A stretch of DNA of 64,000 nt from Trypanosoma brucei (taxonomy: Eukaryota): assembly GCA_000002445.1 (NCBI GenBank), contig CM000208.1, forward strand, positions 576,001 to 640,000. Direction: 5' to 3'. Numbering within the stretch: position 1 is the stretch's first letter; every line of letters begins with the position of its first letter. Shown here in pieces: positions 35,287 to 48,103 of the stretch. Under the pieces are notes generated by a model, which had not been told where the DNA came from, made no database searches, and saw nothing but the letters and a program-made list of their open reading frames with translations. The translations under genes were made by a program, and so were the position numbers.

Positions 35287-36699
35287 GGGGTTAAGAAGTG
35301 CTGTTGCGCTCTGCTCAATTACATTTTCTCATATGAGCGGTATTAGTTAATAATCAAACTCACACTGTCCATCGGGTTACCAGCGCGACCCCAGGGGGTT
35401 TCCCCCTCTCTTCAGTTCGCACTTCTCTCTCAAAGTATATTTCCCTTTACTGAATTAGCGCATGTAAAGAAGAAGAAAAAAAGGTTGGAAAAACAAAAAA
35501 AAAGAAAAAAAAGAAAAGAAAAAAAAACAGTCGGAAAAGGGAGAGAGAATGTGTGTGCATGCATGAGTTATAGAGCAGAGAAGATGGGTGGTGATGTCTT
35601 TGTTATGTGCAGTAATATGGCAGGGTCAATTTGATGTTGAATGAGGCATGACTACCTGAGGTTAACTCGAAAGGGCGCGTTTCTCGCGGTCATATGTTTA
35701 TTTCATTTGCCCTGTCCCGGCACTTGTGTGGATAAAATGTGATTGCCTCATATTAGTATACATCCTCCTACCTTATGTCCAAAAAATAAAACTGCTGTCT
35801 CCTGCAAAAATAATAATAATTATTATTATTACGCACCTATTTTTTTTTCTCTCCTCGCTTGTCTTTTGTTATTGTTTTTTTTTTTAAAGACGTATTCAAG
35901 TCCCAACATGAAAAAATTCCCCAATAGACACAAATGCTTTGTGTGCAATTCATTTGAACCATGAATGCGTGCACTTGTACACAAAACGTTAACTCCATAA
36001 TGTTAAAAAGAAAGGGCGAGTATGGGAGGGAGGAAGGCAAGAGGAGGAGAAAAGTATAAATGTGGAAACACATCGCGAAACTTTTTTTTTTCCTTTTTGT
36101 CTTCCTCCTGTACTGCAACGTTCCGTCGACGCAAAAAGTATTGCAAAAGATGTCAGTTTTTATTCTCTTGTGGTTTTACCGCTTCTATTTGTGTACCGAT
36201 GCGCCTTTAGGTTTGCTGTCAAACCGTCTATAATAATAATTATTATTATTCTCATCGTTTAAACGTTATCAATATGATTTATTGATTTACGGTTTCTAAA
36301 GGGCATGCGGGCTTTTGAAAACAGCGGTGTGCCGCTCCTGTTTTTGTCCCCCAAAACCCAATGAATTATTTCCATGCATTTACCATCGTTTAATTATGGG
36401 GTGCACATCCACGCTGTAGAAATTGGTGGTATATCATTCATACAATTTAGTTTATGTTCTTATTTAAATGACTATCCTGTGTGTGTGTGTGTGTGACGAT
36501 AATAATAAAAATGATGTTGTTGTTGTGGCTGCTTTTGCATATCTACTTTCTTATTTTATATTATATTATAATTATTATCATTATTGATTTCTTCAACCCC
36601 CACTTCTTGTACTTCATGGAATATATAGACCCCCGGCAACTGCATAGCAGTGCCTTTAAATATATAAAGAAATAAAAGAGGGACGGAACCATATTACCA

Positions 36700-36757
36700 A
36701 TATATATATATATCCACATCCACATATATACATAAAACATATATATATATATATATC
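36700..36757. repeat. (TA)n microsatellite, interrupted
   Basis: TATATATATATATCCACATCCACATATATACATAAAACATATATATATATATATAT is read directly from the window. Confidence 0.8.
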
Positions 36758-36826
36758 TGTTTCTTTCATAGTGTTAAGTGCAACTGCGGCGAGAAGACGA
36801 AAAAGCGTAGGGTTGAAGGAAGGGGA

Positions 36827-37966
36827 ATGACTGATGTCTCGCTTCGACCCTTAACAACTCATAAATCGCATCGTCACTCGCACAATACGGGAGTGCTGGA
36901 GTGTCAAACTATTTTGCAAGGGAGATTCAGATTGAATGGTCTGCTGGGAAAAGGAGGATTTGGAGAGGTATACGCCGGTGTGACGGTTTCCACGGGTGAA
37001 GAAGTGGCAGTGAAGATTGCACCAAATAGAAAACGTCATGTTTTGGCTCATGAAGCGGATGTCATGCGTTCCATACAAAGTGCTGTTGGTAATGCAGATC
37101 CGCCAGGTATACCCACACTGAAATTCTTTGGTCATGATGGTGATAACACTATTCTCGTCATGAGTGTTCACGGGCCGTCATTGGAGAAGCTCCGCTCTGA
37201 GATGGGAAGGCTTTCCCTCAAAACAGTAGTTATGCTTGGTATGGAAATGATTGACAGAATACAGTTCTTTCACTCCACTGGATTTATACACCGCGATATT
37301 AAACCAGGAAACTTCCTCATGGGCGTTGGAAAGCACGCGCATGAAGTGTATTTGATTGATTTTGGTCTCAGTACCCGTCACAGTCATTCCGGTGCTTGGC
37401 ATCGTGGAAGACCGACTGCAAGCAAGTTTGTTGGCACATCATGGTTTGCATCCCTTCGCACTCATCAGGGTTACGCACAGAGCCGCCGAGATGATTTGGA
37501 GCAGTTGGTTTATTCACTAATTTATCTCCACCGCGGAAAATTGCCTTGGACGGAGTTACGGCACACTGACCGAACTGAAAGGACACGGGCTATTGCAGCG
37601 GCGAAAGAAAATCTCTCTACCGCACAAATATGTGTGTGTTGCCCCCCTCAGTTTGAAGTGCTTCTCACATATGTACAGAAGCTTAAGTTTGATGAAATAC
37701 CGCGATATGAAATGTGTAGGAATATCATTTGGTCTATTCTCCATCCATCATCTGCAGGTCCGAAACCGAGTTTAACGTATGAATGGCTCACACCAGAGCG
37801 GGAATGCGAGACACCAAAGTGCGTGTTTCCGGCTCTGAGGGGATCAGAAACGAAACATGGAACTAAAAACGATGAAGTGGCAAGAAACGATAGTGAAGCA
37901 AAGAAAAGTTTGAGGAGACGAATGCCCACAGCGAGTTCTACATCTCATACCGCCGGAAAGGGATGA
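36827..37966 (+). CDS. Casein kinase 1-family Ser/Thr protein kinase
   Basis: LLGKGGFGEVY..VAVKI (Gly-loop and VAIK lysine). HSTGFIHRDIKPGNFLMG (catalytic loop, CK1-type). LIDFGLS (DFG). SIN-like motif region after the kinase domain. Confidence 0.85.
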   Translation: MTDVSLRPLTTHKSHRHSHNTGVLECQTILQGRFRLNGLLGKGGFGEVYAGVTVSTGEEVAVKIAPNRKRHVLAHEADVMRSIQSAVGNADPPGIPTLKFFGHDGDNTILVMSVHGPSLEKLRSEMGRLSLKTVVMLGMEMIDRIQFFHSTGFIHRDIKPGNFLMGVGKHAHEVYLIDFGLSTRHSHSGAWHRGRPTASKFVGTSWFASLRTHQGYAQSRRDDLEQLVYSLIYLHRGKLPWTELRHTDRTERTRAIAAAKENLSTAQICVCCPPQFEVLLTYVQKLKFDEIPRYEMCRNIIWSILHPSSAGPKPSLTYEWLTPERECETPKCVFPALRGSETKHGTKNDEVARNDSEAKKSLRRRMPTASSTSHTAGKG

Positions 37967-40549
37967 TGTTGGCTAATCATAATCATCATAATAATAATGA
38001 TGAGGAAGTATTGGGGCGCCACAAGTATTTTTTTTCCCCCCTTCTTTTTCCCCTTTCCCCTTTCCCCTTTCTTTCTTCTTCTTATTCGTCTTCTTCTTCT
38101 TGTAAAATGCGGCATGTAAGGGCAACCTCTCCACCACACATAGGCTGGAAGTTGTGTGAGACCGTGCGGCCTCCTTTTCCACCGTCTGTCTTTTGTTGCT
38201 TCTGTTTTGTTTTTTTTTGATGATGATGATGATGGTGTTGTTGTTGTTGTTGCCTCTCTTTCTTTTTTTTTTCTTCCCCTCCTCTTACCGCCTTTCCAAC
38301 ACTCATTTCACTTTCAATTTTTTTTTTCCTGTCTCTCCCTCTGTTTCTTTTCCCCACGAACGACAATTTTTTATTACCTGTTTTGTTAATCAGTTTGTGT
38401 AATGTGTGTACTCGTGTGATGGGGAAAGATGTGGTGATGCAAGACACGCAATGTATGCTACGGTTCTTTTTTTTTTATTATTTTCCAGATCATTGTTCTC
38501 AAACAACCAAATAAAAACAATTATATATATGTATAATATATATATAAAGAAAAAAAGAAAGTAAATAAGTTACACGGAGAAAGAAAAAAAAAGGAGGAAG
38601 GGAGGAGTACTCAGTTTACTTCCCGATTTTGCTCTCGAGTTTTATTTCCTTGTCTTTGCATTTTGTATACTTTTTTTTTACTTACTGTTGACACTCCCTT
38701 GTGGAGTGTTGATTTGTAAGGGAAAAAGACAAGGGGAGGAGGAGAAGAGGGAAAAATTAATTTTTTTTAAAAAAAAGAAAAAAAAAGCACCCTCATGTGT
38801 GTTGTCCTTTTTTTTTCTTTAATTCCCATGCTACTATTCCATACCCTCGTTATTATTATTATTATTATTAACAAAAGCGTAAAAGGTACCCAAGCGTAAG
38901 CGCAGTGCAACCATTTCTTTTTTTTCTTTTTTGTTCTAAATGTTTATGTCTCGCTCAACCACCCCATGTCCAGTGCACCTCATGAAGGAAGGGGTATTTA
39001 ATGAAAGAGAAAAAAAAAAAGTAAAGTGAAAAAAAAAGGAGAAAAGATAAAAAAAAAAAAAAAGGGAGGGAGGGAGAAAACAGGGCAAGAGAGAAAATGT
39101 GGAGTAGTTTTGTTTTTTTTTTTAAAAAAAAACAAGGAACGAAGAAGTGAAGGGGAAAAAGGAGAGAGAGAGAAATGTGAATATTTATGCTCCCGGTCTC
39201 TCTTTTCTTTTTTTTCTTTTTTTTTCTCCCGTCCTTTTTCCCTCCCTCCCTTTCTTGCCGCTTGTGGGGATTTTATGAGTTTATTTTGATTATTTTCTCC
39301 ATCCGCGTTTTCCTCATATGTTCTTAGGTGCTATGGGTTCTGATGTCATTCCTTCTTATTTTCCATACCACTTTCTCTTCTTATCATGTTGTTAATCTCA
39401 TGAGATATTTATATATTTATATATTTATGCCGATGAAGAACCGTTCGCCTTTTGTTGTTGTTGTTGTCGTTGGTGTCGTTTCAGATGTAACACCCTTCCC
39501 TATTGTCTTGCTTCCTCCGCTGTGAGGTCGCGTTTTTGTACACTTGTGGTTGTCTGTTTGTTTTTTGTTTTTTCTTTTTGTCGTTGTTGGGATTTTTTTT
39601 TTCTGTTACCACGGTTCCCATTAAAAAAATAAATATATATATATACTATACGATGTTACCACTTCGCTGATAATTTCTTCATATTCATTCGCGCATGTGG
39701 AAATCATATGGGTTATGTGTGAAGATCGGAACGACTTTTGTAACCGGTCCCTGCGTCTTATCTCAATTGTCTACTCTTGTCCCCTTTTTTAAAAATAAAC
39801 CTTCCAACCTCTACTTTCTGTATCACTGTTATAATTCTTGAATAAGCAAAGAAAATACAAACGACAAGCGAATGCGCAGTGAAATAGTTTTTCTTTTTAA
39901 ATCAAATAGAAAAGCAAGGGACTAAACTGTGTGGACCCGGCTGAGCACTGCGTAGGTGATTCTCTTTTATCGTACAACACAGGAGCAACCTTTTAAGAAG
40001 AAAGGACCGCCAGGTGCAGTTTGTAGAACTTCCATTCGCACAGGAGGGGAAAAAAGGAAGTGGATTATATTAGACTAAACCACGCGGGTCCCCCAGACAA
40101 AAGGGGAAAAGTAAGCCAAAATTCATCCGCTCGATATTTGAACGTCCCCCCCCCCCCAAATGATGGTGAACTTCCATCGATTTATGGTTGAAAAAGATAT
40201 TGCGTGAAGCAACACATCCCTCCACCACCAACACACAACTCCAGTAGGGAACGTTTGGTTGGATTGTGTAGGCATAAACGGCCTTTTGCCCGTACCGCCT
40301 TGAATTTTGTAATGCGGGTGTGCCTATGCTGAAGTGTTGTGCGGACCCATCTAAAAGGATGGCTGTCAAAAGAGTTGGATCCCCATCCATTTTCCATCGT
40401 TCGCACCCAGAGGCCAGTTGCACTATTTCCAATATGTGACAAAGGCGGTCTCTTCCCTATTTTTCCTGTTTCCTCTCCCCTTCTTCATTATTTGGTATTG
40501 ATGACGAGCGTGCCGTCGGTCCCACTCAAGACTGTAACCGTAAAAAACG

Positions 40550-40621
40550 AAATCAGTGTTAGTTCAAACCATACTTTCAGGTGAAATGGGTTTCTCCGCA
40601 TCTCCGTTTCATTGGATGGTG
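40550..40621. repeat. Left copy of a ~72-bp inverted repeat (partner at 42320..42391), immediately 5' of the retroposon signature
   Basis: AAATCAGTGTTAGTTCAAACCATACTTTCAGGTGAAATGGGTTTCTCCGCATCTCCGTTTCATTGGATGGTG matches the reverse complement of 42320-42391 with ~4 mismatches. Confidence 0.7.
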
Positions 40622-40632
40622 ACTAGTCTACA

Positions 40633-40710
40633 CCCTGGCGATGCCGGCCACCTCAACGTGGTGCCCAGGGTCCAGTGCCCCGTATCATCGGGGGAAGCCA
40701 AGAGCCAGCA
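40633..40710 (+). promoter_or_regulatory. Pr77-type retroposon 5' signature (internal promoter, reported HDV-like self-cleaving ribozyme)
   Basis: 77-79-nt block starting CCCTGGCG and ending AAGAGCCAGCA. From memory it matches the conserved first ~77 nt shared by ingi, RIME, L1Tc, NARTc, DIRE and SIDER. Confidence 0.65.
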
Positions 40711-40828
40711 GAGTTCCTTTCATGGGGAACACTTCTGTGCTCCGGCTACGGCATCATACAGCACAGGGATCAACAGCGTCTTGCTGGGACACCGTTTTTC
40801 ATTTGTCGGTCCTTGGGCACGTGCCAGC

Positions 40829-40897
40829 GTTGCCATCAGCAGTATCATCCGCACTAAGATGCTGCTGTCCGGTGATGTGGAAGAGAATCCCGGCCCG
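40829..40897 (+). other. Virus-like 2A ribosome-skipping peptide (..IIRTKMLLSGDVEENPGP) in frame with the retroposon ORF1
   Basis: The codons GAT GTG GAA GAG AAT CCC GGC CCG at 40874-40897 encode the canonical D(V/I)ExNPGP 2A motif. It lies 12 codons upstream of the ORF1 'MQW' position, the same arrangement described for L1Tc and ingi. Confidence 0.75.
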
Positions 40898-40909
40898 TCG
40901 TTGCGCCGG

Positions 40910-41080
40910 ATGCAGTGAAACTGCGCCGGGCTATCTCAAGGAAAGAGATTAGCACTCCACAAAACCCTTGTTGATAAGCGGATCGCCTTTTGTCTGTTGA
41001 GCGAGACAAGGATGACGCCTGGAGAGGCGGCTTGCTTTAGCGTTGCTGGTTACCTGGCTAGTCTACACTTTGCGTCCAAA
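40910..41080 (+). pseudogene. Retroposon ORF1 (APE-endonuclease N-terminus) pseudogene with a TGA stop at the third codon
   Basis: ATG CAG TGA AAC TGC GCC GGG CTA translates to M Q stop N C A G L. The intact ingi ORF reads MQWNCAGL. Translation stays ingi-like for ~55 codons and then breaks down. Confidence 0.6.
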
Positions 41081-41999
41081 TGGGTAGCGAGGAGAAACGA
41101 ATAATACGGCGACGAAGCGAGGCCCAGGGAAGGACCACTTCAATGCGGAAACGGATTCGGGAATCCCCTCGGACCAAATGGTTTTGCGGTGGGGAGGCGC
41201 CCCGCGGAATTCCCAGACATCGGGGGGAGTGCGTTATGGTATTCTGTTTTCCTCTCCTTTAGGTCCGCGTCCCGACGGCGAGTCATAATACAGAGGTGTC
41301 CAAGCGTGTTTTTTTTTCCTTTTAAGGAACCACTTGGGGACCGAAAATGGAGGTCGGTGGGGGCAAGAAACAAAGAAGTTGGGGGAGCGAATGGAAATTG
41401 CCATGAAGAAAGGAGAGGTGGAGGCGGTTGCCCACCAGACTCCTTCCGCTACCGCTTGGGTGCAAAACACAAAGTGTTCCTCGCATGCCGAAACACCGCG
41501 GCCTCGGGAGCGCGGAGTCGACGTCGCGTAAGGAATTTGAGAAAACGCTCCGGAAAGTTCAGGCGAAGGGAAGCCGTTGCGCCTCTGGTTGCCCAAACGC
41601 TTCGGTTTCAGAGCTGGCCACGGGGCCCGGTTTGGGCTCTTCAACGAACAAATTGTGAATCCGCCGCTCTAACGAGTGGAATCTGACCGCGGGTGGAATG
41701 ATGGAAAAGGGCACCGAGGCTTATATTTGCAGAATCCGGTGGCTTTTTAGCCCAAAACACACCTCAGGACGATGGGCAGGGTAATCGCTTGACGCCCCAG
41801 CTGGATGACGGTGGATTCGCCACCACTGCAACGATGGGAAGCGGGAACAAGGATGGGAAAGGTGTCAAGTAAATAAGGGATGAAAAAGCAAGCACAAACC
41901 TCCCATCGTGTAGGCGGCGTTCACGCGATGGGTGTGGAGACCTCGAGGAGATTTACAAACAGAGGCAACCACGGAACTGAACCAACTGAATGAAGCCAT

Positions 42000-42036
42000 C
42001 CCCCCCCCCATTGTGTGTGTGTGTGGGGGGGGGGGG
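42000..42036. repeat. C10-ATT-(GT)7-G12 palindromic homopolymer/dinucleotide tract (potential hairpin or slippage-prone site)
   Basis: The sequence CCCCCCCCCCATTGTGTGTGTGTGTGGGGGGGGGGGG is read directly from the window. Confidence 0.8.
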
Positions 42037-42319
42037 AAGGATGCAGAAAATAACGCGCGTGAAACAACCTTGCGGTGACGGAGAGTGCGCTAACATAAAA
42101 AAGAGGGGAAGGTGGTCTCAACAAGTTAAAAATAATGTAGGGAATACTGAGGCCATGTGCCTGTTTGTGGCACGCTGAAGGTGGCGAGGGAAATACATGG
42201 ACAGGTAAATTGGAGAGGGCAAATGCGGAAAAGTGAAGTGAGATGAAGTGAAGCCTCCGCCAGCATTCTTCGGTATGGCAGATACCAACAAATCAGCGGC
42301 TGCATTGGACGGGAAATGC

Positions 42320-42391
42320 CACCATCCAATGAAACGGAGATGCGGGGAAACCCATTTCCCCTAAAAGTATGGTTTGAACTAACAGTGATTT
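42320..42391. repeat. Right copy of the ~72-bp inverted repeat
   Basis: The reverse complement of CACCATCCAATGAAACGGAGATGCGGGGAAACCCATTTCCCCTAAAAGTATGGTTTGAACTAACAGTGATTT aligns to 40550-40621. Confidence 0.7.
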
Positions 42392-43945
42392 AGACGGCGC
42401 CCCCTTTCCGATCCCTGTTGAGACCTCATACCGCGGTTGGTGATGAGAGGATTCCTGACATTATATTTGTAGGCGGTCGCGGACGTTCCCCTTCTCACAG
42501 CCATGCCACGTCCCACTGTTTTTTTTTCACCTTATCCTCCACTGTGGGTGTTCGTTGTTTTTTTCTTTTTTCCCTTACTCTCCATTTTTTTTTTTTAAAG
42601 TTCCAATTATCCCTCTTTCTGGTACCGAAACCACGATATTCATTGTGCGCCTTAACCGAGAAACGGCTGCGCCACAGATGGAATCCATAGAAGTGGATGA
42701 AGCGGTTCAGCAGCATTTGCTAAACTGCGTGTCTTACGTGATGGAGTGCGCACAAACATCAAGAAACGCCAAAATCCTATCGAGGGGGGGGAAAGTGGGG
42801 GAAAAGGTGGAACACATTGTGGTACGAACTTCTCCAGAAGAACTGTAAGACAAAATGTCAAGAGAAACAAGGCGAAGCCAGTCGCGATGGCAGCAACCAC
42901 CATCTTCAAGAGCAAAAAAAAATTTTGTAAAGGGGGTATAAAAAGAAGCAAATGGACAATCCGTAACTTGAAAAACAGAAGTGTAACTATATAACTTTCA
43001 CCGGTGCCTCCAGTTTTTTTTTTCTTGTTTCTCGTGCATCCCTTCCTGACACACATGCACATTTTGATGTGCACGTTAGTTGCATTGCTGTGTAACACGA
43101 CCGCAGTAAAACAAAGTTCTGGCACCCACAAATGAAAATTGGGTAAAAACAGCAAGAACTTATATTCAAAAATGCCCACAGGCGTACTTATAGTCATTAC
43201 CTCAGACTTAATATAAGCGAATGCATCAATAAAGGTATACTGCCTTTCCCCCGACCTACGAGAGGCATTTCAGGTTTTCATACCCTTTACCAATAGCATT
43301 GAATGCTTTTTAATAATAATAAAATAATTCTCCACAGAAGCAAAAGGGGGGTTTATGTCACTTCGAACATCCTAATGCTTTCTCGCGGTCCTATAATTCA
43401 TACCCATAGCTTAGCTTAAGGAACCTCTACGAGAGAGGTGCGTCACTTTCAGCACGTTAATGCAGGCGGTTCGAATGTATAAATGAGACGTTGCCTTGCT
43501 AGTTATTGTTCCATGGGAGGATTATCTCCACTCATAACCCCTCGCCCCCCAAAAAACAACACACAAAGACACTGAGATTCACCACATTTGACAACATTCC
43601 CCCTAAAGGGTTTAAAATGTTGAATCCCTCTCGCTTCTGCACGCAGGTCCCGTGCTTGTAAGTACCGTGACCCCTAGCAACAGCTCCCGTGCCCTGCTTC
43701 GTGCAGATTAAGGTTTGCACAGTCGCTGCTGGCGGAGTTGTATCATCCCCCATTATGTACATTTATCTACGCATTACCGAGCACCTTCGCAATACATCCG
43801 GAGTTTTGGAAACTCGGTCACATAAAGTCAGCACGGACCCTCCCAGTCCCTACGCACTTCCCCTGTGGATCTTTTTGCTCTCCAGTGCCTTTGCGTTTTC
43901 TGCTCTTTCCAGACGGAGGCGCGGATCCAGCTGAGGTGGCACCAT

Positions 43946-45721
43946 TCACATTTGACGAGGGTTCACGGCCGCGTTGTCGTCAGTGGGGAGTTTCGGAAGT
44001 GGGGTCAATCTAAGCTTGTAATCCTCGTCATCGAAACAAACTTCTTCCCGCGTGGGGCAGATGATGCTGCCTTTCCAGAGGTGACGACCGAGGGGCTGCA
44101 CTGTAGCACCGGGTTTACACGTCTGCCAGCTGTGGTCTAGCAAAAAGCGAATCTGTAGCTCTTTGCCAGTGCAGTTCGTACGGACACAAACGTCACCAAT
44201 ATCTTTATTGGAAAACTTCAAATTGACACCCTTCACACATCGCGAGCCCTTTCCAACCTCACTGCCACGCAAAAACTTCGACTGACCATTGACGCAGTTA
44301 CCGCTGTTGTACTGAACCACCATCGGGCAATGGTCCATGAAACGGGACTTGCCACCAACCCGTGAATTTCTGAAGTAGCGGAACTCGGCGGGAAGTTCAG
44401 TTCGATGTGTACCTAGGGAACACTGGCCGAGTCCGAGACGGTCATGGGTACAAGTGAACAGACGGCTCTTCCATAAATGATCGCAGAACGTGTCGGGGTG
44501 CTTTGACTTTCCTTCCTGCAAGCATTTCTCCTGTAGAAAACTACATCCACGATTTAGGCCCCAACGCGTCTTCTCTGCGCGACTGAAATTGACGCGGTAG
44601 TGTCCCATACTTGCGAACACCCCTAACGACATCACAGTTAAATAATTCAAGTTCCCATAAGGGGCCATCACGTCCTCGACGGCATTGCGTTGCTCCAAGT
44701 GTGTTGCGAAAACGCCGGGGCCTCCTTCATTCTCCATTTCGATACCCGGAGCCGTCGAGCAATTGAAGTGCTTCCGCGCGACACGCTTCGCAACCTCAGA
44801 ATCGACCAACCACGAGGTTTTAAGTCCGCGAATGCCTCCTTTCTGTTTCATAATTCCCCTTCTTATGAGGATATCTGCTTGGAAGCCGAGAGCGTGTCCT
44901 AATTCGTGTGCGATAACTCGCACAAAGAAGTCAGTTTCGGCAACGTACTTGGGGGATATGTTGACAACGCCAGAAACCGGGCGGCCGTCAGTGAGCATTG
45001 CGCACACGGAAGCCCACGCCATATTCCCTATCGTTGGCCGAGCCGCCACGTATATACTAACATCACCTTCAAAACCATTGGTGTAGTGACCCTTGGGCAC
45101 CTTGAATAAGCTGCAGTATCCAGCGTATGAGGATGGTAAAACAATCCTCCGGTGATATCTCCTTACCAACAGGCGATCCGTGTGTAATTTGATTGCCTTT
45201 GGAATAGCGACCTGCACGATGACGCGCTTCTTGCGAACTGTGAGAACATCCCCCGCTGTACAAACAGTCGTCTTCCCACTGACGAGTATGCTACGGACAT
45301 CACCTGCCATCGTGCAGAAGCGGCTGGGGTCATTCAAGTCTTGCGTGTAAGCTCTGATGCGAATTGGTTTCCACCTGCTGTCAATCTCCCCTTGCCCGTA
45401 ATCATCAACGTTATTGGTGTATTTAGGTTTCTTATCTACGGATGCAGTTCTTGCACTAATCAAATCACCGCCAGTGGTACCCTTCGCTTCTGATTCAGGG
45501 GGCATAGTACCTACTATCGGCACATCATCTGGATTAATCGCAGAATGATGACTTCCGCACCAACCACGGGGCGTATCGCCGGTGCCTTCCTCTCCCCATT
45601 GTTCCTCTGGTGCTTCCAAATGTGTCGCTGATGCTTCCACGTGCACGTGTGCTCGCAAGTGGTGCGAGACGAAAGCGGCAAATATGCACCAAAAGATAGC
45701 GGTTCCTAACAGTTGGGTCAT
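43946..45721 (-). CDS. GP63/leishmanolysin (major surface protease, M8 zinc metalloprotease), apparently without a GPI-anchor signal
   Basis: Minus-strand 591-aa ORF. N-terminal hydrophobic signal-like segment (LLGTAIFWCIFAAFVSH). HEXXH zinc motif VIAHELGHALGF with M8-type surrounding sequence and many conserved Cys. The C-terminus (...TDDNAAVNPRQM) is hydrophilic. Coordinates follow the ORF track. Confidence 0.9.
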   Translation of the reverse strand: MTQLLGTAIFWCIFAAFVSHHLRAHVHVEASATHLEAPEEQWGEEGTGDTPRGWCGSHHSAINPDDVPIVGTMPPESEAKGTTGGDLISARTASVDKKPKYTNNVDDYGQGEIDSRWKPIRIRAYTQDLNDPSRFCTMAGDVRSILVSGKTTVCTAGDVLTVRKKRVIVQVAIPKAIKLHTDRLLVRRYHRRIVLPSSYAGYCSLFKVPKGHYTNGFEGDVSIYVAARPTIGNMAWASVCAMLTDGRPVSGVVNISPKYVAETDFFVRVIAHELGHALGFQADILIRRGIMKQKGGIRGLKTSWLVDSEVAKRVARKHFNCSTAPGIEMENEGGPGVFATHLEQRNAVEDVMAPYGNLNYLTVMSLGVFASMGHYRVNFSRAEKTRWGLNRGCSFLQEKCLQEGKSKHPDTFCDHLWKSRLFTCTHDRLGLGQCSLGTHRTELPAEFRYFRNSRVGGKSRFMDHCPMVVQYNSGNCVNGQSKFLRGSEVGKGSRCVKGVNLKFSNKDIGDVCVRTNCTGKELQIRFLLDHSWQTCKPGATVQPLGRHLWKGSIICPTREEVCFDDEDYKLRLTPLPKLPTDDNAAVNPRQM

Positions 45722-48103
45722 CTCTCGCCCTTTGCGACTTTAAAAACAACCTCTCTTTCCTTGTTTTTCAGTCTCAAAAGCAGCTGGACGGCGCTGCGTT
45801 GATGTACGCACGTATGGATAGTGGCAGATATTTTCTCTGTATTCACCTAACGTGCGATATAACCCTTCACCACTAGACCTACTACTCCCTCTACCTCACT
45901 TAACCAAATTCAGCACGTCGAAAAGTGGCGTCGGACTAATTTCTTCTTCTATGTGAAAACGCAAAAACAGAAAACAACGGAATCTGGGGTCATTGTTCAC
46001 TACCCCCGTGCGGAACAAAAGCCCACCAAATGACTTGTAAATGGAGGGGGAAATACCACATAAGCAACCCCTAGAAAAAAAAATACTTAGTGGCATAATG
46101 ACAAAAGTTTTTTTAAAAAAAAAAACAGCTAGCCGAAAGTATAACAGTTTTGCAACCTCTCGCTTTTGCCTTATCTTGCTGTTCACATTCCCACTAACTG
46201 CTGCGGAAAACGAATGCGTATATGTCAAAAAACAATGACCAGCAGTGGCAATGCAAAGCGAGACCCCCAGAGGTCTGTGAGTGCGCATGGTTTGCATTCT
46301 AACGGTACCGCCTGTTGGTAATTAAGCAGCAAAATAACACTAGCTTCTGGGGTACGCATGCCCGCACCTGCGATAACAACCGAATAATTGTGGTGACGCC
46401 TCTCATAGAAACCTGAACTAATGATGTACAACCCACAGTATCACTTTGTAACTTCTATCCACATGCACGACGACTTGAAAGAAGATGGGATAGGAGAGGT
46501 TGCTCATTTCTGGGCTACACAGAGGTGTAATGCATGTCATGTGAATGAAATGCTAAGCGAAGTAACGTCACTGTAACGTCGCTGTATGCGCGGCACTTCC
46601 TCGCTCTGACGCCAATGCGCCTCCACATCGTCACACCACACAAACGCGTGGCATTTGCTAAAATGTTTTCATCTTTATCAACCATAGATCAGCGGCATAT
46701 CCGAAGAATGTGCTAAACCGGCAGGTGCATCAAAGTAAACCGCTCTAGACGATCACAGAAATAAGTTGAGAACTGAACGTCACATGCTATAAACAAAAAA
46801 TATATTACATCTGACTCAATTAATGCAAAGAAGAAAGCGGGAGCAAGACGGAAAAAGAAATTAAAAGGATGAGCCGACAAATGTAAAGTGGGCCTCTGGT
46901 TTTCACACACACCAAGACAACAGCGCAGAATCACGGCAGCAGCCTATACGGCAGACAGCCTACATGCCGTCCATTATGTTTTTTTCGACGCAGCCTACAC
47001 CAAATAGACATAAACGAACTCATGCTTGCGGGAGCTCGACAAAAAGCTTTTAATGAGGAAACCAAAAGGGGGAGGGATCGGCACCAGCGCCGAGACATCG
47101 TTCAGGGCACATGCACAAGAAACTAGCCAAATATAAGAGTGTGGGGAGGCCCAAATAAATTGGATTAGGGCATAAGAAAAAAACCAACAACAACACACAT
47201 GTATACACATAAATGCAGAGTACTACTCGCCCCTATATAATCAAAAACAATCAGTGTTATACCTTACGGTGTATGCACATACCTCATGACGGCCTAGTGA
47301 AAGAGAAAGGGCACGTATCGGGTAGGAAACATGACAGCCACAGCTTTCCATTCGCTGGTTGAGTGGCTTTATTTCCCCCTTCGTTAGCAGAAATAAAAAC
47401 ATATGTGTGGTCGGACACAGCCAAAGTAATGAAGAGGAACCCTGAAAACATTTTCCTGAAACAAAAGTCGCATTAAGCAAAGAAGCAACTAAGCAAACAA
47501 AAGTGGCAAGTTGGTGTGAAATTGCCCCTCACATGCACCCCGCAGCCGCTGCCGTTGCGCATGGCTGCGTAGTATTCCTTTGTTGCGGAACAGGGGGGAA
47601 GTTGTGAATTCAAGGGAGGAAGTCCAACAAATAACACTGTTGGTGGGTGAGCATAGGCATCCTTGCCCACTCACAAGAACTAAAGAATAATAATAGTGAT
47701 AATAGTAGTAGTAACGATGATAAAAAATAAATGAGGGGGGACAAACAGTGGGTGAGATAAATAATGTGTGAGGCAAATAGGTTAAGAGAAAAACATGATT
47801 CAAAGCTGTTGATTGAGAACAAATAAGATTCAACGAACAGTCGTCGCTACAATAGTCAGGGGTCTCCCCCACCAAAGATGGAAAATGGTACATTAAGGAA
47901 GTAGACATCAAGCGGAATAAGCACAAACAGGACATACATGAACATACGTAGAAATTTGTATGCGTACATAGGCTCGTGTGCGTGGGCAGCGGTGGGTAAT
48001 GAGCTCGCTTGTTCTTGGATTTGGTAACCGTCTACGGACTCTACGTTTTTTTTTTACTTCCACCCTCGCCGGTAGCTGGGTCTCCGTGCCCCTCAGGCGT
48101 GGT

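What the first reader, a model, noticed from the sequence alone, without database searches (positions are those of the whole stretch)
40550..42391. About 72-bp inverted repeats flank a 1.84-kb block carrying the retroposon fragment
40550-40621 is about 94% identical to the reverse complement of 42320-42391. The left copy ends 11 bp before the retroposon 5' end. Inverted, not direct, repeats are not target-site duplications. They could be a duplicated and inverted pre-insertion target such as RHS-type hotspot sequence. They could instead be a foldback rearrangement, or the ends of a non-autonomous element that captured the ingi 5' fragment. Such a structure would form a long hairpin if transcribed, making it a good dsRNA/siRNA precursor.
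Basis: seen in the sequence. Interest (0 to 1): 0.55.

Follow-up and report, generated by a model that had tools for sequence, protein, structure and literature searches.

The report
Short inverted duplication in trypanosome strand-switch region
A real but apparently neutral 72-74 bp inverted duplication sits where two gene arrays converge on Trypanosoma brucei chromosome 10; a retroposon piece later inserted at its own target motif in one copy, and the locus was already known to make small interfering RNAs.

Summary
40550-40621 and the reverse complement of 42320-42391 match at 68 of 72 bases. The ends are sharp and there are no other copies in the window.

The window is T. brucei TREU927 chromosome 10, about 576-640 kb. 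The repeat lies in the convergent strand-switch region between Tb927.10.2390 and Tb927.10.2410. This is CTU36 of Tschudi et al. 2012, a published DCL2-dependent siRNA locus.

T. b. gambiense has both arms, and T. equiperdum has the left arm (its contig ends before the right). The ancestral arms were 74 bp and differed at 2 positions. Since the subspecies split they have diverged no more slowly than their flanks.

The last 22 nt of each arm match the published Tbingi/TbRIME endonuclease target signature at 5 of 7 positions. The 422-bp ingi 5' piece sits at the predicted nick in the left arm and has its own 12-bp target-site duplication. It inserted by itself and was not captured.

A genome-wide table of ingi/RIME upstream flanks contains the arm sequence only at this element, so it is not an RHS-type hotspot. 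Nothing supports a transposon with terminal inverted repeats.

Both strands are predicted to form the 72-bp stem (-120 kcal/mol). Whether that stem adds to siRNA output is untested. The finding is ordinary to mildly interesting.

The parts
40550..40621 (+). Left arm of the inverted repeat. It is 72 nt in this genome and 74 nt (to 40623) in the ancestral state.
   Evidence: It is present in T. b. gambiense (L003 10050-10123) and T. equiperdum OVI (L001 13807-13878).
42320..42391 (-). Right arm of the inverted repeat (74 nt if counted from 42318).
   Evidence: It is present in T. b. gambiense (L003 11816-11887). It differs from the left arm at arm positions 7, 29, 33 and 46.
40599..40620 (+). 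Tbingi/TbRIME (ingi4) endonuclease target signature at the inner end of the left arm. The predicted first-strand nick lies between 40620 and 40621.
   Evidence: The signature 5'-AxxxxxxxTxxxGTxGGxTxxx^xTxTxxTxxxxx-3' comes from PMC3820030. The site scores 5/7 upstream and 2/3 in the TSD in the exact register. Only 0.26% of window positions score as well.
42321..42342 (-). The same target signature in the right arm, pointing inward and unoccupied.
   Evidence: It scores 5/7 upstream and 1/3 in the would-be TSD. No Pr77/ingi 5' signature lies next to it.
40621..40632 (+). Left copy of the 12-bp target-site duplication (GACTAGTCTACA; ancestral GGCTAGTCTACA).
   Evidence: The 12-bp length is the one given for Tbingi/TbRIME in PMC3820030.
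40633..41054 (+). ingi 5' fragment of 422 bp. Its 5' end is intact (Pr77 signature, 2A peptide SSIIRTKMLLSGDVEENPGP, start of the AP-endonuclease domain). It is 3'-truncated with no poly(A), and one extra T follows at 41055.
   Evidence: It is 93.7% identical to a full ingi in L004. Full-length ingi copies continue ...GCTGGCTACCAACATCACGG / ...FSVAGYQHHGIARNCK at the point where this copy breaks off. It is listed as NC_007283:616633-617054, element 1-420, 5' ok, 3' truncated.
41056..41067 (+). Right copy of the 12-bp target-site duplication (GGCTAGTCTACA).
41068..42317 (.). 1.25-kb G+C-rich (about 55%) non-coding block between the arms. Its origin is unknown.
   Evidence: GC profile. No Pfam match for any ORF. 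The 193-aa ORF finds only its own orthologue in 1.84 billion representatives. No similarity to ingi by blastn or tblastx, and no Pr77 signature.
36827..37966 (+). Tb927.10.2390 (CK1-like kinase), the last clear gene of the plus-strand array. It is the left border of the convergent strand-switch region (CTU36).
   Evidence: The Tschudi et al. probe primers match exactly at 36830-36855 and 37410-37434. ORF map.
43946..45721 (-). Tb927.10.2410 (GP63/MSP metalloprotease), the last clear gene of the minus-strand array. It is the right border of CTU36.
   Evidence: The probe primers match exactly at 45695-45718 and 45114-45136. Peptidase_M8.

Best explanation
The two arms are a young, local, inverted duplication of a 72-74 bp non-coding segment. 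They lie in the silent middle of a convergent strand-switch region on T. brucei chromosome 10 (CTU36, between Tb927.10.2390 and Tb927.10.2410).

The duplication arose in the Trypanozoon lineage before T. b. brucei, T. b. gambiense and T. equiperdum separated, and it has drifted neutrally since. The most economical origin is a replication or repair event that copies a nearby stretch in inverted orientation. Examples are fold-back or snap-back templated synthesis during microhomology-mediated repair of a break. This origin is inferred, not shown.

The duplicated segment ends in a good match to the Tbingi/TbRIME endonuclease recognition signature. Later, and independently, the ingi machinery nicked the left copy at that site. 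It inserted a 422-bp, 5'-intact, 3'-truncated ingi piece and created its own 12-bp target-site duplication. The identical site in the right arm stayed empty.

The repeat has no demonstrated function. Read-through RNA of either strand that spans both arms should pair them into a 72-bp stem with a perfect run of up to 39 bp. That stem could be diced. The locus, however, already yields DCL2-dependent siRNAs of both polarities, as every convergent unit does, and it contains ingi sequence. Any contribution from the stem is probably minor.
For: Shown by tool results:
- The IR is real, sharply bounded, and the only non-low-complexity IR in 64 kb.
- About 89 kb of other T. brucei-group DNA holds only one IR of 45 nt or more within 6 kb, and that one is made of two ingi pieces.
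- The locus is CTU36 by exact primer matches.
- The orthologous T. b. gambiense locus is collinear and has both arms, the ingi piece and both TSD copies. The T. equiperdum contig has the left arm, the TSD and the ingi start.
- Only two arm differences are fixed (positions 7 and 29). The others are lineage-specific.
- Divergence between window and gambiense is 4/148 (2.7%) in the arms against 1.0-1.7% in the flanking SSR. This shows no constraint and no concerted evolution.
- The target signature and 12-bp TSD fit in the exact register. Three other ingi/RIME 5' flanks score 5-6 of 7 on the same signature.
- Full-length ingi copies continue past the truncation point, so the right TSD copy is target sequence and not ingi.
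- The arm sequence appears upstream of no other ingi/RIME in TREU927. It is absent from about 75 kb of non-orthologous T. brucei-group DNA (L004, L005, L007, L008), from JGI metagenomes and from bacterial/archaeal genomes.
- There is no tRNA and no Rfam family, and the arms alone fold no better than shuffles.
- The arm-arm duplex is -120 kcal/mol. The MFE of the 1.95-kb transcript keeps 69/72 of these pairs on either strand.

From the literature:
- CTU36 gave 8,088 AGO1-bound reads (3842 top, 4246 bottom), falling to 1.8% of wild type in dcl2-/- (PMC3447711).
- Transcripts from this SSR accumulate when RBP33 is depleted (PMC4162612).
Against: - The genome-wide copy number of the 72-mer could not be measured directly, because no T. 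brucei genome is searchable by DNA here. The evidence for 'two copies only' is indirect.
- The duplication mechanism is inferred from the anatomy alone. No pre-duplication allele or outgroup was available, and which arm is the original is unknown.
- A 72-nt copy placed 1.25 kb away is, from my own knowledge, longer and more distant than typical templated insertions.
- The inner end of the homology lies only 3 nt beyond the predicted endonuclease nick. With 34 comparable signature matches in the SSR, simple neutral duplication followed by an unrelated insertion does not explain this coincidence.
- CTU36 is the sixth most productive of the 48 listed convergent units, so some local enhancer of dsRNA formation is not excluded.
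Confidence: 0.6

Rival explanations
1. Functional hairpin trigger. Read-through transcripts crossing both arms fold into the 72-bp stem. Nuclear DCL2 dices the stem, and this seeds or boosts siRNA production and silencing at this strand-switch region.
For: The stem is predicted on both strands at -120 kcal/mol, and 69/72 pairs persist in the full-transcript MFE. CTU36 is a DCL2-dependent siRNA locus and ranks 6th of 48. [quoted passage not shown] The authors state that the source of dsRNA at convergent units is unresolved. Transcripts from this SSR exist.
Against: All 49 surveyed convergent units give siRNAs without any need for an IR. Top and bottom reads are nearly equal across a 15-kb interval, whereas a 72-bp stem could supply only a few siRNA registers. 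The arms evolve at least as fast as their flanks and show no compensatory changes. Part of the read count may be multi-mapping ingi siRNAs landing on the 422-bp ingi piece. No read-level data were available.
Confidence: 0.12
2. Terminal inverted repeats of a non-autonomous DNA transposon or foldback element. The 1.25-kb block between the arms is its body, and the ingi piece either inserted into it or was captured by it.
For: The terminal position of the arms, their sharp outer ends, and a compositionally distinct G+C-rich interior.
Against: No direct repeat flanks the arms: the junctions read ...AAAAAACG|AAATCAG and CAGTGATTT|AGACGGCG. No further copy of the arms or the interior was found in any sequence examined. 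No transposase-like ORF is present. The ingi piece has its own TSD, so it was not captured. From my own knowledge, class II elements are not known in trypanosomatids.
Confidence: 0.04
3. Two copies of a recurrent ingi/RIME hotspot sequence (RHS-type or other) that happen to lie in opposite orientation.
For: The inner 22 nt of each arm match the ingi4 target signature, and one arm is occupied at exactly the predicted nick.
Against: Of all ingi/RIME 5' flanks tabulated for TREU927, only this element carries the arm sequence. Three other sampled flanks are unrelated outside the signature positions. No frame of the arm has a P-loop or any RHS or Pfam match. Signature-level matches are common, with 34 in this SSR alone, so the motif does not require a hotspot family.
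Confidence: 0.05
4. Two convergently oriented copies of an unannotated small RNA gene or protein-binding element. One example would be a termination or boundary element that both converging polymerases read in the same sense.
For: Each converging gene array meets its arm in the same orientation. The arm length is in the small-RNA range. The arms sit in the centre of a termination zone.
Against: No tRNA and no Rfam hit even at E up to 10. The arms' folding energies are indistinguishable from shuffles, with z from -1.05 to +1.07. Substitution rate in the arms is not reduced. No other copy was found in the other loci examined.
Confidence: 0.04
5. Break-linked duplication. The inverted copy was made while repairing a break introduced by the ingi endonuclease at the signature, so the duplication and the retroposon activity are causally linked.
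For: The homology ends 3 nt beyond the predicted first-strand nick. The insertion is abnormal (3'-truncated, no poly(A), one untemplated T), which suggests an aberrant event at this site.
Against: The perfect 12-bp TSD indicates an otherwise orderly insertion. The arms already differed at two positions in the common ancestor, and the relative age of the ingi piece cannot be ordered against them. No sequence-level footprint distinguishes this from coincidence, whose probability is roughly 1/17 to 1/34.
Confidence: 0.12

Closest known systems
Long inverted repeats IR1-IR7 of T. brucei (Tschudi et al. 2012, PMC3447711)
   Same: They are inverted duplications in core regions of megabase chromosomes. 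They can fold back as RNA and are associated with AGO1-bound siRNAs. In those repeats the spacer also yields small RNAs.
   Different: Those arms are 422 bp to 10 kb long and at least 99% identical. This one is 72-74 bp and 94% identical, far shorter than any in their list of seven, and it is not in that list. It also lies inside a convergent transcription unit, which gives siRNAs anyway.
Tbingi/TbRIME (ingi4 subclade) relative site-specific insertion
   Same: The conserved upstream signature, the 12-bp TSD and the intact Pr77 5' end fit at the expected register.
   Different: The inserted copy is 3'-truncated at element position 422 and has no poly(A). This is unlike RIME (5' and 3' ends of ingi joined) and unlike the usual 5'-truncated LINE copies. 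It suggests internal priming or an aberrant event.
RHS (retrotransposon hot spot) genes
   Same: The sequence carries a preferred ingi/RIME target, and a retroposon occupies it.
   Different: There is no RHS reading frame, no P-loop upstream of the site and no Pfam match. The arm sequence precedes no other ingi/RIME in the genome-wide table.
Fold-back / snap-back templated insertions made during microhomology-mediated end joining or replication template switching
   Same: A short stretch of nearby sequence is copied in inverted orientation with sharp ends. A possible 2-nt (GC) junction microhomology exists. From my own knowledge, T. brucei lacks classical NHEJ and repairs breaks by MMEJ or HR.
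   Different: From my own knowledge, 72 nt copied across 1.25 kb is larger and more distant than typical templated insertions. No pre-event allele is available to verify the junctions.
MITE / foldback class II transposons
   Same: Terminal inverted repeats of tens of bp bracket a non-coding body of 1-2 kb.
   Different: There is no TSD, no other copies and no related autonomous element.

Membership tests
Tbingi/TbRIME (ingi4) target-primed insertion | Conserved upstream signature AxxxxxxxTxxxGTxGGxTxxx immediately 5' of the TSD | tested here: met
   5 of 7 specified positions match in the exact register, and 2/3 within the TSD. Only 0.26% of window positions score this well. Three other copies score 5-6/7.
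Tbingi/TbRIME (ingi4) target-primed insertion | 12-bp target-site duplication flanking the element | tested here: met
   G(A/G)CTAGTCTACA at 40621-40632 and GGCTAGTCTACA at 41056-41067. The ingi reference sequence shows the right copy is not ingi-derived.
Tbingi/TbRIME (ingi4) target-primed insertion | 3' end of the element with poly(A) next to the downstream TSD | tested here: not met
   The element stops at ingi position 422 (GGTTACC + T) with no poly(A). It is therefore an atypical, 3'-truncated insertion.
RHS-type retroposon hot spot | Insertion site lies in an RHS reading frame, five codons downstream of an ATP/GTP-binding (P-loop) motif | tested here: not met
   None of the three forward frames of the arm contains GxxxxGK[ST]. 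No Pfam family matches at E up to 10. The feature definition is from PMC7563717.
RHS-type retroposon hot spot | The same flank recurs upstream of many ingi/RIME copies | tested here: not met
   In the TREU927 table of ingi/RIME/SLACS 5' flanks, three arm sub-sequences (12, 18 and 20 nt) occur only in the row or rows of this element. Their reverse complements occur 0 times.
TIR DNA transposon / MITE / foldback element | Direct target-site duplication immediately outside the terminal inverted repeats | tested here: not met
   The outer junctions ...GTAAAAAACG|AAATCAG and CAGTGATTT|AGACGGCG share no direct repeat.
TIR DNA transposon / MITE / foldback element | Multiple dispersed copies sharing the termini | tested here: inconclusive
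   No further copy was found in the 64-kb window, in about 75 kb of other T. brucei-group loci, or in the ingi-flank table. A whole-genome DNA search was not possible.
TIR DNA transposon / MITE / foldback element | Transposase gene in this copy or a related autonomous copy | tested here: not met
   No Pfam match for any ORF of 80 aa or more between or beside the arms. The 193-aa ORF has no relatives beyond its own orthologue.
siRNA-generating long inverted repeats of T. brucei (Tschudi IR class) | Arms of hundreds of bp or more, essentially identical (>=99%) | tested here: not met
   72-74 bp at 94% identity (97% in the inferred ancestor), against 422-10,011 bp at 99-100%.
siRNA-generating long inverted repeats of T. 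brucei (Tschudi IR class) | AGO1-bound small RNAs map to the arms | not testable with these tools
   Only the total for the whole 15-kb CTU36 interval is published (8,088 reads). No read-level data are available here.
Convergent transcription unit siRNA locus (CTU36) | Lies between the two converging gene arrays, delimited by Tb927.10.2390 and Tb927.10.2410 | tested here: met
   All four published probe primers match the window exactly. The strand switch is visible in the ORF map and in GC skew.
Structured small RNA gene (tRNA, snoRNA, snRNA) | Match to a known family, or folding stability above background | tested here: not met
   ARAGORN finds none. Rfam finds none at gathering score, and only chance-level hits elsewhere at E up to 10. 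z-scores for the arms range from -1.05 to +1.07.

The most novel reading that the evidence does not exclude
The 72-bp stem formed by read-through RNA nucleates DCL2 processing at CTU36. This would help explain two questions Tschudi et al. left open: where the dsRNA at convergent units comes from, and why siRNA yield differs so much between units (CTU36 ranks 6th of 48). A related reading is that the inverted copy is a repair footprint of an ingi-endonuclease break, which would be a previously undescribed retroposon-associated rearrangement.
Probability: 0.12. Interest if true: 0.5.

Novelty: new member of a known kind. Interest (0 to 1): 0.25.

Why it matters
As it stands the finding matters little. 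It documents an unreported short inverted duplication inside a convergent strand-switch region that has already been studied experimentally (CTU36; the RBP33-repressed SSR). It also explains precisely why the ingi fragment sits where it does: a canonical endonuclease signature and a 12-bp TSD.

It would matter more if the stem proved to be a local source of dsRNA. The origin of dsRNA at trypanosome convergent units, and the uneven siRNA yield among them, are open questions. This locus has published small-RNA libraries, Northern probes and knock-out lines, so the idea could be tested quickly.

The 3'-truncated, poly(A)-less ingi copy with a perfect TSD is a small curiosity for the mechanism of ingi reverse-transcription priming.

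Tried and rejected
1. A gapped search for extension of the repeat inward (with the ingi piece and one TSD removed) and outward gave scores no better than shuffles. A permissive self-alignment only produced a meaningless gapped chain.

2. Small RNA gene: ARAGORN, Rfam at gathering score and at E up to 10, and single-arm folding all found nothing.

3. Exact look-ups of the ORFs 42652-43197(-) and 41189-41686(+) found no record.

4. I ran a homologue search with a 773-aa concatenation of junk ORFs from the block and both flanks. It returned nothing and failed its own positive control, because P0121 shares 24 residues with the query. 

5. Pfam on ten ORFs, and on arm translations in all open frames, gave nothing.

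6. A search of 1.84 billion representative proteins with the 193-aa ORF found only its own orthologue, on a 977-bp Logan contig.

7. A second Pr77/ingi 5' signature next to the right arm or anywhere else in the SSR: none above shuffles.

8. ingi, DIRE-like or other similarity of the inner block by blastn (word size 7) and tblastx against a full ingi: none.

9. Scans of metagenome and bacterial/archaeal genome collections for arm cores gave 0 hits, as expected.

10. An attempt to reach a more distant trypanosome's orthologous SSR through P0010 failed because the contig ends at the kinase gene.

11. Bringaud et al. 2002 (PMC118050) is not held, so the RHS hot-spot nucleotide sequence could not be compared directly.

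Full report
**Observation**

The inverted repeat is real. The repeat finder gives arms 40550-40621 and 42320-42391, 72 nt, 94% complementary, 1698 nt apart. A direct comparison gives 68/72 identical. It is the only inverted pair of 40 nt or more in the 64-kb window that is not low-complexity sequence. Neither arm has any other match in the window by blastn-short or tblastx.

The ends are sharp. Alignments of the outer flanks score no better than shuffled sequence, and neither do the inner flanks with the retroposon piece and one TSD copy removed.

**Where this is**

The genes are trypanosomatid, and the retroposon carries the ingi 2A peptide SSIIRTKMLLSGDVEENPGP. Plus-strand ORFs run up to 37966 and minus-strand ORFs run from about 42.6/43.9 kb to 55 kb. 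The repeat therefore lies in the middle of a convergent strand-switch region.

The four PCR primers that Tschudi et al. (2012, PMC3447711) used to probe Tb927.10.2390 and Tb927.10.2410 match the window exactly. They match at 36830-36855 and 37410-37434, and at 45695-45718 and 45114-45136. The region is therefore their convergent transcription unit CTU36 (Tb927_10_v5 610,000-625,000).

A published table of ingi/RIME copies lists the retroposon piece as NC_007283:616633-617054. This places the window at about chr10:576,001-640,000 and the arms at about 616,550-616,621 and 618,320-618,391.

**What is already known about this locus**

CTU36 yielded 8,088 AGO1-bound small RNA reads in wild-type procyclics (3,842 top strand, 4,246 bottom strand). 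The count was 187% of wild type in dcl1-/- cells and 1.8% in dcl2-/- cells, and CTU36 ranks sixth of the 48 listed units. All 49 convergent units surveyed gave such reads. The authors state that the origin of the dsRNA is unresolved.

Their screen for inverted repeats reported seven, of 422 bp to 10 kb and 99-100% identity. This 72-bp repeat is not among them.

Fernandez-Moya et al. (2014, PMC4162612) used the SSR between Tb927.10.2390 and Tb927.10.2400 as their example of SSR-derived transcripts that accumulate when RBP33 is depleted. The stretch that holds the repeat is therefore transcribed at a low level, silenced, and a documented siRNA source. Neither paper mentions the repeat.

**Evolution**

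The orthologous locus of T. b. gambiense DAL972 (L003, chr10 FN554973.1:555,733-576,335) is collinear with window 36000-46000 at 97.8% identity. It contains both arms, the ingi piece and both TSD copies. A T. equiperdum OVI contig (L001) runs through the left arm and TSD and breaks 28 nt into the ingi sequence.

Comparing the five arm sequences gives the following:
- Positions 7 (G/C) and 29 (C/T) are fixed left/right differences.
- Position 33 changed in the brucei/equiperdum left arm.
- Position 46 changed in the TREU927 left arm only.
- Position 39 changed in the gambiense right arm.
- With gambiense G at 40622, the repeat reads ...GGATGGTGGC in both arms. The ancestral repeat was therefore 74 bp with two differences.

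Substitution divergence between the window and gambiense, by segment:

| Segment | Divergence |
|---|---|
| Two arms | 4/148 (2.7%) |
| Flanking SSR | 1.0-1.7% |
| Inner block | 1.5% |
| ingi piece | 2.6% |

The arms are therefore not under detectable constraint. No derived state is shared between the two arms of one genome, so there is no sign of gene conversion. The duplication predates the split of the subspecies by a comparable amount of time, though the counts are small.

**The retroposon piece and why it sits at the end of the left arm**

Positions 40633-41054 are 93.7% identical to the first 422 bp of a full-length ingi (L004). Full-length ingi copies continue ...GCTGGCTACCAACATCACGG (...FSVAGYQHHGIARNCK). 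This copy instead continues ...GCTGGTTACC-T-GGCTAGTCTACA. The following 12 nt (41056-41067, GGCTAGTCTACA) are therefore target sequence. They repeat 40621-40632 (GACTAGTCTACA here; the first G-to-A change is specific to this lineage).

Twelve bp is the TSD length of Tbingi/TbRIME. Bringaud et al. (2011, PMC3820030) give the conserved target signature of this subclade as 5'-AxxxxxxxTxxxGTxGGxTxxx^xTxTxxTxxxxx-3'. The left arm ends CATCTCCGTTTCATTGGATGGT^GG.... In the exact register fixed by the TSD, this matches 5 of the 7 upstream positions and 2 of the 3 TSD positions. Only 0.26% of positions in the window score as well. Three unrelated ingi/RIME 5' flanks from T. b. gambiense score 5-6 of 7.

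The piece is therefore an independent, endonuclease-dependent insertion into a pre-existing sequence. It was not 'captured' by a larger element. It is atypical in being 3'-truncated without poly(A), which suggests internal priming or an aberrant event; this was not resolved.

The right arm carries the identical 22-nt signature pointing inward, with a poorer TSD region (1/3), and is empty. No Pr77 signature lies beside it.

**Is the 72-mer a recurrent hotspot or a dispersed repeat?**

A whole-genome DNA search was not possible, because the T. b. brucei genome is not in any searchable collection. Three indirect tests were made.

1. The Data in Brief table of Khan et al. (2015, PMC4660242) gives 100 nt of 5' flank for the ingi/RIME/SLACS copies of TREU927. 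I searched it for three arm sub-sequences of 12, 18 and 20 nt. All three occur only in the two rows of this one element, which is listed once in chunk-relative and once in absolute coordinates. The reverse complements of the 18- and 20-mers occur nowhere.
2. About 75 kb of other T. b. gambiense and T. b. equiperdum sequence, with several ingi/RIME 5' ends, has no copy.
3. No frame of the arm shows the P-loop that precedes the RHS hot spot by five codons (PMC7563717), and none shows a Pfam match.

The RHS-type hotspot reading is thus not supported. The more modest statement, that the arm contains an ingi target motif, is supported.

**Is it a transposon?**

The evidence is against it:
- The outer junctions (...GTAAAAAACG|AAATCAG and CAGTGATTT|AGACGGCG) share no direct repeat.
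- The 1.25-kb interior is G+C-rich (about 55% against 31-38% in the AT-rich part of the SSR at 39.0-39.9 kb) but encodes nothing recognisable. It has no Pfam match, no relatives of its longest ORF other than its own orthologue, and no similarity to ingi.
- No other copies were found.

**Is it an RNA gene?**

There is no tRNA and no Rfam family even at E up to 10. The weak hits at 41987-42048 come from a C10(TG)nG12 tract. The single arms fold no better than shuffles.

**Hairpin potential**

As RNA of either strand, the two arms pair with a predicted -120 kcal/mol. On the plus-strand RNA the longest uninterrupted run is 39 bp. In the minimum-free-energy fold of the whole 1.95-kb transcript, 69 of the 72 arm-arm pairs persist on both strands.

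Whether one molecule spans both arms in vivo is unknown, and so is whether the stem adds anything to a locus that is already a DCL2-dependent siRNA source and contains ingi sequence. The published CTU36 read total may also include multi-mapping ingi siRNAs.

**Most likely account**

- Shown: the repeat is a young, lineage-specific, sharply bounded inverted duplication that evolves neutrally. One copy was later hit by the ingi machinery at a canonical target site.
- Inferred: the duplication arose by a fold-back or snap-back type of templated synthesis, or by template switching during repair or replication. The shared GC at the inner junction is a possible 2-nt microhomology. From my own knowledge, T. 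brucei relies on microhomology-mediated joining and homologous recombination.

**One unexplained point**

The homology ends only 3 nt beyond the predicted endonuclease nick. There are 34 equally good signature matches in this SSR. The coincidence is therefore of the order of 1 in 17 to 1 in 34, unless the duplication was itself linked to an endonuclease-made break.

**Verdict**

The feature is a new instance of known kinds of things: a short local inverted duplication, and a site-specific ingi insertion. It lies within a locus whose siRNA production is already published. Interest is low to moderate. The one reading that would raise it, a functional hairpin trigger for CTU36 siRNAs, can be tested directly with existing small-RNA libraries.

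Noticed in passing
window 40633-41067: The ingi copy is 5'-intact but stops at element position 422. It has no poly(A), one untemplated T, and a perfect 12-bp TSD. That is the opposite of the usual 5' truncation of LINE copies. The last ingi bases (GGTTACCT) resemble the start of the TSD (GGCTAGTC), which hints at microhomology-guided internal priming.
   Followed up: partly
window 40544-41101; L003 10001-10603: One reading frame is open from inside the left arm through the ingi 2A peptide into the AP-endonuclease start. It is broken here only by TGA at 40917-40919, which is TGG in T. b. gambiense. In gambiense a 200-aa ORF spanning the left arm plus the ingi piece is annotated 'hypothetical protein, unlikely' (P0121).
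   Followed up: partly
window 42000-42037: C10-ATT(GT)n-G12 tract inside the block. The C and G runs are complementary and could form a small hairpin or G-rich structure. It accounts for the sub-threshold Rfam hits (Pab91, mir-1892), and a Logan contig (L006) ends there.
   Followed up: no
window 40633-41055 vs L003: The ingi piece differs between T. b. brucei and T. b. gambiense by 2.6% plus 3 indels, against 1.0-1.7% in the surrounding SSR. This could reflect ectopic conversion from other ingi copies or relaxed, CpG-rich sequence.
   Followed up: no
L008 9317-9992 and 14558-15233 (T. b. equiperdum chr8 CM010679.1): A 676-nt, 98% inverted repeat whose left arm ends exactly at the 5' end of a plus-oriented ingi. 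The right arm is the 3' part of that same ingi, so the left arm is an inverted ingi 3' fragment into which the newer ingi inserted. It resembles the finding superficially but is made of ingi sequence.
   Followed up: partly
window ~56000-61000: A second strand switch, this one divergent. Minus-strand ORFs end near 55.1 kb, plus-strand ORFs resume at 57.5/61.3 kb, and GC skew changes sign there.
   Followed up: no
window 42652-43197 (-): A 181-aa hydrophobic, low-complexity ORF 260 nt outside the right arm. It is annotated in gambiense (180 aa) and is probably Tb927.10.2400. It has no Pfam match, and whether it is a real gene is doubtful. If it is not, the SSR extends to the GP63 gene.
   Followed up: no
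L001 ~11210-11300 (T. equiperdum OVI): The contig has a run of N flanked by a duplicated ~70-nt pyrimidine-rich stretch, relative to window 38050-38120. This looks like a scaffolding artefact.
   Followed up: no
PMC4660242 supplementary file 1: Many elements appear twice, with coordinates that differ by multiples of 175,000 minus 70. These are chunk-relative and absolute positions, so raw row counts overstate the number of copies.
   Followed up: partly
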